The notes under the pieces are model-generated. The model was not told where the DNA came from and did no database searches. It saw only the letters and a list, made by a program, of their open reading frames with translations. A stretch of DNA of 60,452 nucleotides, the filler included, from Sluysia triapertura (taxonomy: Eukaryota): the NCBI GenBank assembly GCA_046118255.1. It is 4 parts of 4 records of this genome, joined end to end, with 100 filler letters (N's around TTAATTAATTAA, not from the genome) between each part and the next. Parts side by side here need not be neighbours in the genome. Positions count along the whole stretch, not along the records: positions 1 to 17,445 come from JBJNIA010188609.1; 3 more parts are not named here. The stretch is one strand, 5' to 3'. Below are positions 9,701 to 12,700 of the stretch, piece by piece. A program made the translations under genes and the position numbers. How positions within the stretch are numbered: the first letter of the stretch is position 1; every line of letters begins with the position of its first letter.

Positions 9701-12700
9701 CCACACTCATCACCTTCAATCATTGTCACAACATCATAATATATAAATTTATTTCACAATCATCACTTAAATTCAAATTAACTTCAACCTTTTTAACAAG
9801 TATTTTAAATTCAAACCTTTTAACAAATACTTCAAATCCAATGTATAGATCTTGTTTTTCAATTTACAAAATTTCAATAGATTTCAATAAATTATCTCTA
9901 ACACTTTCCATTTCACTCAACCATAATCATTACACATTTTAGACAACTTTAAAGATTTTGTTATTTTACACTGTGAAGCAACAACTACAAATCATACATT
10001 GTATATACTCATAGCCGTTGCTTCTTCACAGTCAATCTCTCGCATTCTTCATGTATATGTAAGAAAAGAGCTATATATATAAAAGAAAAGTTCTTGTTAT
10101 AGACTTTCAAGATATTTATGTATTTATATTATTTTTATTATTATCATTATTTTTGTTATTATCACTATTTTCATTATTATTTTTATTATTATTATTATCA
10201 CTAATTAGTTTTATCAAAACTTTTAAAATAATTTAAAATCTTGTTGTCACCATCATCAGTAGTGACACTTTGTACATTGTTAATTTTAAATCACTACTGA
10301 TGATGATGGTCGGTAAATCGATTTTACACTAATCACCACCACCCAATCAGAGCATAATCACGAAATCATGAAAAGCAAATAACAGTGCTCTGATTGGGTA
10401 AACAAGATTACAGACTTCCAAAATTAGAAGCAAACAAAATCATTAATTCGCCACTAAAAAAATTAACAACTAACCTGCTAATAATTTGGACTAATTTTCA
10501 ATTTCACAAAACTACGAAAAGTCTACGTTAAAATTTGGTTTATCATTAGCTTTTGATGGATTCTCAACCTCTACCAGATAATTATTTAAATTCACATAAT
10601 GTAAACAATTGCAGAACAGCTAAAACTGCTGTTACTGTACAGTATGTCAATCAGCCGATAATTTCCAATGTTAAAAGGAATTATACATATGTTTCTAACC
10701 CTTCTGTTGTAGATGATTCTTTGATTTTAAATACATTAAATTCATCATCAGATTTACAATTTGAATCAGATTATTCATTAAATGACAATTTATTAAGTCA
10801 ACATAATGTGAAAGTTAAAAATAAAGATATGACCAATATAAACAGTGTTACAGATAGGCGTAATAACTATATCTCTGCTAATTCCAATCAGTCGACTGAT
10901 CCGAAAAAAAGAAAATTAATACAACAACAATTATTACTATTTCTTCAGATGCATGAAAACCCTATATTTAGTTTAACATCTTCAATTAGTAATGACGTAA
11001 TGATAATGCATGAAAACCTTTTATTTAGTTTAACGTCTTCAATTAGTAACGATATAATGATGATGCATGAAAATCTTTTATTTAGTTTAATATGTTCAAT
11101 TAGTAACGATATAATGATGATGCATGAAAACCTTTTATTTACTTTAACGTCTTCAATTAGCAACCATATAATGACGATGCATGAAAATTCTATATTTAAT
11201 CTAGTGTCTTCAAATAACAATGATGTAATGACGATATTTCTAGAAATCTTTAATGTGATATTATCAATTAAAGATAAGATTAGTGTCTCCAGTTTCATGC
11301 CTTTAAATACCAACGATATAAAGATGATAATTTTAGAAACACATAAGGACGATCAAGTTAATGTAAGAATACTAAACCAATATTGTCTGGTTATGCGATC
11401 TGGTTTATATAAACGTGGTAATTTTCAGTCAATATCATTCAACGACTATGAAACAATGTCAAGACAATCCATCATATTAGAAAACGACGTATTTGATGTG
11501 ATGTGCTCAGATGTCGTGGGAATGACAAAAGAACGACGCAGTAAACATAGGTACATTGCATTTGACAAGAATGTAACGAATTTCGCCACCGACACGGAGA
11601 TGTATCACTTGATCACGTTGCTCAATTCATTTATGCGTAATTGTCGTTATGGTTAATATTTTTGAATTACAATCTTATCAATTTATATTTTATCATGTAT
11701 GTATATATTTCATTGATAATAATTTTATTGATTCAGAGTCTAATCGAGCCGAGATCCAGAACGACGGAGAGTACTTAAAAGAATTGGTGATACTCGAGAC
11801 TATCCCTAAAACTATAACTTCATTTAATGTACTAATAGATATTAATTATGGTCTTTTTTATAAATTGAAATTTGATGGTGTGAATGTTAAGATACTTTTC
11901 AATAAATTATCAAACATCTTAATATTTAGTTTTAAACTTAATCCAGATAATAATCATTGCAAAACTAAAATCTATAAGATCAATACTCAAAGATACTTTG
12001 AAGTTCTTAACTTAAAGTTAAGGCTTAACGTGACAATCAATTATTCGAAGACATCTAAAATAATAAACTTCTTTTTTTTGAAAACAAATTAATTCAATTA
12101 AAAAATAACTGTAATCTTGTTAGTTTTACTTCCATAGTTGATAAATTCATAATCCAAATATTCGATAAAGATGAATACAAGTTTTCATATCCTAAATATA
12201 AATGTCATTCTCTTACATTTTTCAATACAACGCCCTCAGGTTTACCATGTATCTTAAAATTGCGTCCAACACATGACAATAAAACATATCACCCAACATT
12301 CACACCCATAAGATGTAAAGTTGAAACGTTTTCTAACCATTGAAAATACTTAATTAAAGAAACATTGAAGTTACAAGCATATGAAGTTACGTTAATTGTC
12401 AATGATTCTCATAATTGATTTTTTGTTAACCACTAACACATGATTTTTTTTCGACAAGACCGTGAAAAAATGATCACTTTTTTAGCCTAGATTTATAACA
12501 AGACATAAAAATAAAAAAAGAGTTTTGATGTTAAAAAATGATAAATTTAATATTAATTGAATAAAAAAACTTTATTTGCCATATTTTATAACACAGTATT
12601 AAATATGTTCGATATGATCCATGCCGAGTTAAGGTGGTAATTGAAGTTAAAATATTATTGTGGTAAACGAACACTATTCAATAATTTACTTTTTAAATCG

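What the first reader, a model, noticed from the sequence alone, without database searches (positions are those of the whole stretch)
10892..10954. CBP/p300 TAZ1-like fragment embedded in the family A ORF
Seen: STDPKKRKLIQQQLLLFLQMH. Known: CBP/p300 TAZ1 begins DPEKRKLIQQQLVLLLHAH; by my count 14 of 19 residues are identical. The match stops exactly where five 19-aa repeats begin, and the zinc-binding cysteines of TAZ1 are absent. Copies 2-4 lack it. Inference: in-frame capture of a host co-activator piece (perhaps including the upstream N/S-rich region), making a chimeric, possibly nuclear (KKRK) protein and showing that the family acquires host coding sequence.
Basis: partly seen in the sequence, partly recalled or inferred. 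Interest (0 to 1): 0.75.

Follow-up and report, generated by a model that had tools for sequence, protein, structure and literature searches.

The report
Repeat element carrying CBP helix fragment
A repeated, probably mobile DNA element in an animal genome carries a 19-amino-acid piece copied from the gene for the co-activator CBP/p300, fused in frame into its own unknown protein; the piece is real and shared by many copies, but far too small to work as the original zinc-finger domain.

Summary
The match is real. At 10898-10954, 14 of 19 residues match helix 1 of the CBP/p300 TAZ1 domain. Contigs of two public runs show that other copies are closer to CBP: they keep the zinc-site His, giving 15 of 19, and each remaining difference is one base away. 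The fragment is therefore not a one-off capture in this copy. It belongs to a multi-copy repeat family and draws the most contig depth of any part of the ORF. The element sits in an intron of a HEAT-repeat gene. No other CBP part lies in the window, so this is not a spliced CBP exon. The ORF family is intronless, has no known relatives, and keeps long frames open although amino acids change freely (dN/dS about 1.1). This copy has a frame break. Best reading: an old capture of host CBP DNA by a non-autonomous, HINE/Helentron-like element, then amplified. The helix cannot fold a TAZ domain and at most supplies a nuclear-import signal. The host CBP locus, the element's class and expression could not be tested.

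The parts
7613..13861 (+). Intron (GT..AG, phase 1) of a spliced HEAT-repeat host gene (HEATR4-like, name recalled) that contains the element
   Evidence: Splice sites in compatible phase; HEAT Pfam hits on both flanking exons
9297..9308 (+). Candidate left end motif (subterminal-inverted-repeat-like), also at 46630-46644(-) and 56347-56361(+)
   Evidence: the motif was derived from these sites, so not an independent test
9301..9950 (+). G-poor, A/C-rich tract; the most repeated part of the element
   Evidence: Base counts; summed contig depth 53,000-180,000 in X1 against 13 in the right flank
9978..10046 (+). Non-coding block shared with copy 2 (97%) and copy 3
10115..10200 (+). (TAT)n microsatellite, present at the same place in copies 1-3
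10251..10305 (.). Inverted repeat/hairpin 1, kept in copies 1-3 with changed sequence
   Evidence: z -3.5, -5.1, -2.1
10341..10399 (.). Inverted repeat/hairpin 2, made of two opposed CCAAT boxes; probable promoter (inferred)
   Evidence: z -5.8, -5.7, -4.8
10556..11656 (+). Intronless ORF, 366 aa, no known family
   Evidence: no significant hits besides TAZ1
10556..10862 (+). N/S-rich N-terminal region, variable between copies
   Evidence: Joints 10683-10863 and 10682-10771 in X1; an X2 contig stops matching at 10870
10898..10954 (+). TAZ1 helix-1 fragment, equivalent to CBP D346-H364
   Evidence: numbering from PMC11328122; variants
10901..10915 (+). Basic PKKRK motif, like a classical nuclear-import signal (resemblance recalled); CBP has Glu at the first Lys
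   Evidence: Sequence
10949..11233 (+). Five 57-bp/19-aa tandem repeats, unrelated to the fragment (14-16 of 57 bases identical)
   Evidence: dN below dS in 10 of 10 non-independent unit pairs
11649..12092 (+). Second frame after a frame break; homologous to the C-terminal part of the copy-2 ORF (18296-19246)
   Evidence: 27% over 143 aa, z 11.6; DNA 61.5%
12059..12340 (+). Third short frame; multi-copy coverage drops at about 12290
12424..12435 (-). Inverted partner of the left motif (11 of 12), followed by a weak hairpin and a T run; candidate right end, not established
   Evidence: (6 of 3000 and 33 of 3000 shuffles); lies in a single-depth contig

Best explanation
A non-autonomous mobile DNA element, most like the HINE/Helentron rolling-circle type, long ago copied about 60-90 bp of the host's CBP/p300 coding sequence. 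The piece landed in frame in the element's own ORF. A 57-bp unit then expanded directly behind it, and this version spread to many copies. The helix cannot form a TAZ domain or bind zinc. It works at most as a nuclear-import signal on an amphipathic helix, or rides as a passenger. The window's copy is a drifting member: the repeat edge has probably overwritten the zinc-site His, and the ORF has a frame break. Shown: homology to TAZ1, in-frame position, multi-copy status, intronic location, loss of the zinc sites, open frames. Inferred: capture from the host locus, the rolling-circle class, the order of events, nuclear targeting.
For: Homology. Two of 4 hits among 1.84 billion proteins are TAZ1 proteins. 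Majority variants at 10948 and 10950 in X1 (20 and 14 contigs) and X2 (5 and 5 contigs) restore the His and leave Thr one base from CBP's Ala. All four remaining differences are then single-base steps, each with a chance of 0.25-0.35. Multi-copy: 2937 X1 contigs were laid, and single contigs in the ORF have depth 87-190 against 12-13 for unique sequence. Element anatomy is repeated in the window: end motif, microsatellite, two hairpins, ORF. Capture of short chromatin-gene fragments by Helentrons is published (PMC4067079, passages).
Against: The host CBP locus was never seen, so there is no nucleotide match or breakpoint. The right end is weak: the inverted motif lies in a single-depth contig, and repeat coverage runs on to about 12600. 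No Rep/helicase or transposase was found in 147 window segments. HINEs are described as lacking coding capacity, whereas this family keeps long frames open (0 of 20,000 neutral simulations). The depth peak over the fragment fits selection better than a pure passenger. Conservative substitutions tend to be single-base steps anyway, so that test is only moderate.
Confidence: 0.5

Rival explanations
1. Selected module: the captured helix is kept because it does a job. The element's protein uses it to enter the nucleus and to contact TAZ1 partners or CBP itself, as a decoy or recruiter that helps the element or its host.
For: The bin holding the fragment has the highest depth of any ORF bin in both runs (X1 12,187 against 5,433 and 1,658 beside it; X2 26 against 13 and 9). 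Its best-supported variant, 10903, is synonymous. The adjacent repeats show dN below dS, and frames stay open. The basic motif is intact.
Against: Binding grooves of TAZ1 are formed by several helices around three zinc sites (PMC11328122, passages), and only 19 residues are present. Summed contig depth is not a copy number, and this A-rich stretch may attract unrelated contigs at 80% likeness. Only 3 of the 13 listed X1/X2 variants inside the coding frames are synonymous (12 checked, one by hand). This copy has lost the His and has a frame break.
Confidence: 0.2
2. Decayed CBP-like paralog: the ORF's N-terminal part descends from a duplicated TAZ-domain host gene whose domain was cut short by the repeat expansion and later mobilised, rather than from a small captured piece.
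For: TAZ1 modules are duplicated and shuffled onto unrelated domains in cyst nematode proteins P0002 and P0004. The region upstream of the fragment is low-complexity, like CBP linkers (recalled).
Against: No trace of helices 2-4 after the repeats (second-domain score -1.5). The upstream region varies between copies. The ORF is intronless inside a repeat with shared ends.
Confidence: 0.15
3. Endogenous virus or large self-synthesising element whose fast-evolving gene picked up the host helix.
For: Intronless, tandem, AT-rich ORFs with amino-acid repeats; long degenerate inverted repeats around copy 3.
Against: No relatives in viral contigs or PHROGs at useful E-values; no capsid, polymerase or integrase family. 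These blanks are weak for a fast-evolving family.
Confidence: 0.07
4. Chance resemblance of an A-rich, Q/L/K-rich stretch.
For: Whole-ORF E is about 0.1, a level also reached by unrelated ORFs. The six-frame expectation is 0.06. There is no Pfam zf-TAZ hit.
Against: The expectation is 3e-4 for this ORF. Other copies are closer to CBP at the zinc-site His, which chance does not predict.
Confidence: 0.05
5. An exon of a spliced host CBP gene.
For: None beyond the peptide match.
Against: It lies in an intron of a HEAT-repeat gene on the same strand. There is no other TAZ piece. The window's bromodomains are polybromo. The region is multi-copy.
Confidence: 0.02

Closest known systems
CBP/p300 TAZ1 (CH1) domain, Pfam zf-TAZ PF02135
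   Same: 14 of 19 residues (15 of 19 in most other copies) of helix 1, D346-H364
   Different: Only 19 of about 90 residues; no cysteines; H362 is Gln in this copy; Glu-to-Lys creates a stronger basic motif; no other CBP domain
HINE / DINE-1 non-autonomous Helentrons, and Helentron-Cq-32A with captured histone fragments (PMC4067079, passages)
   Same: High copy number, candidate 12-bp subterminal inverted repeats, internal inverted repeats, microsatellite, and a short captured chromatin-gene fragment (87-244 bp in Culex)
   Different: HINEs lack coding capacity and the Culex fragments are broken; here the fragment is in frame in a long open ORF family. The right end and an autonomous partner are not established.
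Bat Helitron gene-fragment captures and protogenes (PMC4224331, passages)
   Same: Captured host fragments amplified to many copies, some chimeras transcribed or under purifying selection
   Different: Canonical Helitron ends were not found here; the fragment is very short and fused to an element-borne ORF of unknown family
Cyst nematode TAZ1-shuffled proteins (P0002 Heterodera, P0004 Globodera)
   Same: TAZ1 sequence moved out of CBP and joined to unrelated sequence
   Different: Those keep whole zinc-binding TAZ domains; this keeps one helix

Membership tests
TAZ zinc finger (PF02135) | Sequence homology to helix 1 | tested here: met
TAZ zinc finger (PF02135) | Four helices, about 90 residues | tested here: not met
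   Match ends after 19 residues
TAZ zinc finger (PF02135) | Three HCCC zinc sites (Zn1 = H362, C366, C379, C384) | tested here: not met
   No cysteines; H362 is Gln here and His in most other copies
TAZ zinc finger (PF02135) | Pfam gathering score | tested here: not met
   No zf-TAZ hit
Host CBP/p300 gene | Further CBP exons or domains nearby | tested here: not met
   the bromodomains are polybromo
Host CBP/p300 gene | Nucleotide descent from the host's own CBP | not testable with these tools
   No genome held; homolog searches returned no host CBP
HINE/Helentron | 11-15 bp subterminal inverted repeats | tested here: inconclusive
   12-bp pair 9297/12424, 6 of 3000 and 33 of 3000 shuffles, found after the fact; the right arm is in a single-depth contig
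HINE/Helentron | 3' stem-loop and T-rich or TT boundaries | tested here: inconclusive
   Weak hairpin, z -2.5; TT lies a few bases before the motif in 2 of 3 left ends
HINE/Helentron | Microsatellite and internal inverted repeat | tested here: met
HINE/Helentron | Autonomous Rep/helicase partner with the same ends; empty sites | not testable with these tools
   No genome; none in 147 window segments
Canonical Helitron | 3' hairpin plus CTRR, inserted before T | tested here: not met
   Five CTRR sites near the ends, none with a strong hairpin or a following T
Cut-and-paste TIR element (hAT-like) | 8-10 bp target-site duplication at the ends | tested here: not met
   Only A-rich repeats away from the candidate right end
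LTR retrotransposon | Second long terminal repeat and gag/pol domains | tested here: not met
   No second copy of 9150-9990 in the window; no retroelement Pfam hits
Endogenous virus | Viral hallmark genes or viral relatives | tested here: inconclusive
   No hits; structure models unusable (pLDDT 30 and 39)

The most novel reading that the evidence does not exclude
A previously undescribed family of mobile elements encodes fast-evolving proteins kept open by selection. One branch took a single helix of the co-activator CBP, turned it into a nuclear-import signal and TAZ1 mimic, and kept it as its most conserved part, using it to recruit or block CBP-dependent transcription.
Probability: 0.15. 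Interest if true: 0.75.

Novelty: new member of a known kind. Interest (0 to 1): 0.42.

Why it matters
Capture of host gene fragments by rolling-circle elements is well known, so the event alone is not surprising. This case adds a very small piece of a central co-activator, fused in frame in a multi-copy ORF family with no known relatives that keeps its frames open while its amino acids change freely. If the helix is under selection, it would show a mobile element building a nuclear, chromatin-directed protein from a stolen sub-domain, and the many copies would allow a direct selection test.

Tried and rejected
Whole-genome comparison with the host CBP was not possible (no genome). Homolog searches of the ORF found nothing: near length, longer proteins up to 2000 aa (a limit below the 2,414-2,442 aa of vertebrate p300/CBP), shorter proteins. 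Exact look-up found 0 of 10 window proteins. Protein atlas: nothing usable for the ORF; for copy 2 only sub-threshold scores of 0.78-0.79, three of four rows with a DDE_Tnp_4 share, treated as no evidence. Viral contigs and metagenome contigs gave no loci. Rfam: 0 matches. Both AlphaFold models were low-confidence, and the fold search gave 0 matches. Two of the four library hits (P0001, P0003) are unrelated repeat proteins and were set aside. No RNA holder was listed, which is no evidence on expression. The idea that the fragment is a diverged repeat unit was rejected (14-16 of 57 bases). Literature searches for TAZ1/CBP capture by elements returned 0 papers and 2 unrelated ones; none of the 20 papers listed contained 'CREB-binding protein'. 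The library lacks most subscription papers, and no supplements were read. Earlier scan findings: nothing relevant. No complex prediction was run, because a pass would only echo the solved TAZ1 structure.

Full report
Observation. The peptide lies at 10892-10954, in frame in an intronless ATG ORF at 10556-11656. In the PDB, all 6 sequences hit at E<=10 are CBP/p300 TAZ1 chains: best E 0.098 for the whole ORF and 3.2e-4 for a 27-residue piece. The count of 14 identities in 19 is right. By the numbering in PMC11328122 (passages seen) the match is D346-H364, the first 19 of 27 residues of helix 1. The first zinc site needs H362, C366, C379 and C384. The window has Gln at H362 and none of the cysteines. 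Pfam zf-TAZ is not hit.

Is it chance? A whole-ORF E near 0.1 is not enough. Of four control searches with other element ORFs, two gave 0.14 and 0.18, one 1.5 and one nothing. Identity density is stronger: 13 or more of 16 identical is expected 3e-4 times for this ORF against a PDB-sized set, and 0.06 times for all six frames of the window (length chosen after the fact). Among 1.84 billion proteins, 4 passed E 0.001 with a 44-residue query. Two are TAZ1 proteins of cyst nematodes, helped by repeated domains, and two are unrelated repeat proteins. The best independent evidence came from contigs of two public runs. At 10948 nearly all X1 depth (4631 of 4642, 20 contigs) and all X2 depth (5 contigs) read a base that gives His instead of Gln. 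At 10950 most (4327 of 4642, 14 contigs; X2 5 contigs) give Thr instead of Met. These copies match CBP at 15 of 19, and each of the four remaining differences is one base from a CBP codon. I put descent from a CBP coding sequence at about 0.9.

Surroundings. The genome is AT-rich, with spliced genes for a HEAT-repeat protein, glutamate synthase and polybromo and an MSP-domain frame. I infer an invertebrate animal and did not determine the lineage. The ORF lies in a 6.2-kb intron (7613-13861) of the HEAT gene, with compatible splice phases. A profile from stored TAZ domains finds only this ORF among 3329 segments (E 1.2e-4, next 0.12). So it is not an exon of a CBP gene here.

The carrier. In X1, 2937 contigs fell on 9400-12700. 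Summed depth is 53,000-180,000 over the G-poor left tract, about 560-2,000 over most of the ORF, 5,433 and 12,187 in the two bins ending at the fragment, and 13 in the right flank. The tool warns that summed depth is not a copy number. Single contigs of depth 87-190 against 12-13 for unique sequence still show subfamilies of several near-identical copies; one of them is identical to the window over 231 bases. Copies 1-3 share a non-coding block, a (TAT)n run and two hairpins, the second made of opposed CCAAT boxes. A short motif opens the G-poor tract at three places. An inverted partner lies at 12424-12435 (6 of 3000 local shuffles), followed by a weak hairpin and a T run. This resembles HINE/Helentron anatomy as described in PMC4067079 (passages seen). 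Against it, the right arm sits in a single-depth contig, and repeat coverage runs on to about 12600. No canonical Helitron end, target-site duplication, second LTR, transposase or Rep/helicase was found. The class is a likely reading, not a membership.

The ORF family. The 366-aa ORF has no significant protein similarity to copies 2-4. Only the next frame matches copy 2 (27% over 143 gap-free residues, z 11.6; 61.5% DNA). Between these two, dN/dS is about 1.1, yet both are free of stops, which 0 of 20,000 neutral simulations reproduced. The 57-bp repeats show dN below dS in 10 of 10 non-independent pairs. So the frames have been kept open while the residues change fast. The window's copy has a frame break near 11650. 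Two X2 contigs that cross it differ there by an indel compatible with a single frame in those copies, so the break is not shared by all. No relative was found in any library.

The fragment within the family. It is not unique to this copy. A synonymous variant at 10903 is carried by 62 X1 contigs and 6 X2 contigs. One 441-base X2 contig, about 83% identical, runs from 10870 through the fragment into the repeats. Similarity to other copies begins at about 10863-10870, and X1 contigs skip parts of the N/S-rich region, so that region is probably not part of the capture. The two window-specific changes at 10948 and 10950 make the junction match the repeat consensus. That suggests the repeat edge overwrote the zinc-site His (inferred). 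The depth peak may mean more copies, better conservation, or A-rich noise at 80% likeness. These contigs cannot separate the three. Against selection, only 3 of the 13 listed variants in the coding frames are synonymous (one read by hand).

How it most likely works. An element copied a short stretch of host CBP coding DNA, probably by template switching during rolling-circle copying or repair (inferred from published Helitron and Helentron captures; PMC4224331 and PMC4067079, passages). The piece fell in frame, a repeat expanded behind it, and the version multiplied. One helix without cysteines cannot fold a TAZ domain. Its likeliest use is nuclear import through the PKKRK motif, which a Glu-to-Lys change made more like a classical import signal (resemblance recalled). 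I give this reading 0.5, a selected TAZ1-mimic module 0.2, a decayed TAZ paralog 0.15, a viral carrier 0.07, chance 0.05 and a CBP exon 0.02.

Novelty and verdict. Gene-fragment capture by such elements is a known kind of event, including chromatin-gene fragments. My searches found no paper on a TAZ1 or CBP capture, within a library that lacks most subscription papers. New member of a known kind, interest 0.42; 0.75 if the helix proves to be a selected CBP mimic.

Noticed in passing
window 27589-29145 and 33029-34142: Long degenerate inverted repeats (66-81% identical) flank copy 3 and its two ORFs, like a foldback or large TIR element; not seen around copy 1.
   Followed up: partly
window 18259-18564: The copy-2 ORF also begins with tandem repeats (108 bp, 36 aa, about three units) unrelated to the 57-bp units; a short YE-M-RQ motif recurs in the C-terminal part of the copy-1 ORF but is not significant.
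   Followed up: partly
window 11654-12085 against 18643-19075: Two paralogous frames stay open and gap-free over 143 codons with dN/dS about 1.1; this may reflect diversifying selection and deserves its own study.
   Followed up: partly
window 56347-58042: Copy 4 lies between polybromo exons on the opposite strand (intron inferred); it shares the end motif and G-poor tract but no detectable ORF similarity with copies 1-3.
   Followed up: partly
window 46416-46644 (-): A fifth left end (motif plus G-poor tract) runs into an assembly gap; copies 2 and 3 also start right after gaps, consistent with a collapsed high-copy repeat.
   Followed up: partly
window 4197-4481 (-): MSP-domain (VAP-like) frame between exons of the HEAT-repeat gene on the opposite strand; a nested gene or retrocopy.
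   Followed up: no
window 26165-26704 (-): Exons of a glutamate synthase gene.
   Followed up: no
window 12440-12620: A separate-looking AT-rich repeat with many internal deletions among X1 contigs; an 11-bp motif at 12459 recurs in the inverted repeats around copy 3.
   Followed up: partly
P0002, P0004, P0005: Cyst nematode proteins with two or more tandem TAZ1 domains, one fused to a SPRY domain and labelled histone acetyltransferase though Pfam found no HAT domain.
   Followed up: no
run X2, window 11851-12016: X2 carries a different organism label from X1 yet holds a 166-base contig identical to the window, beside more diverged copies.
   Followed up: no
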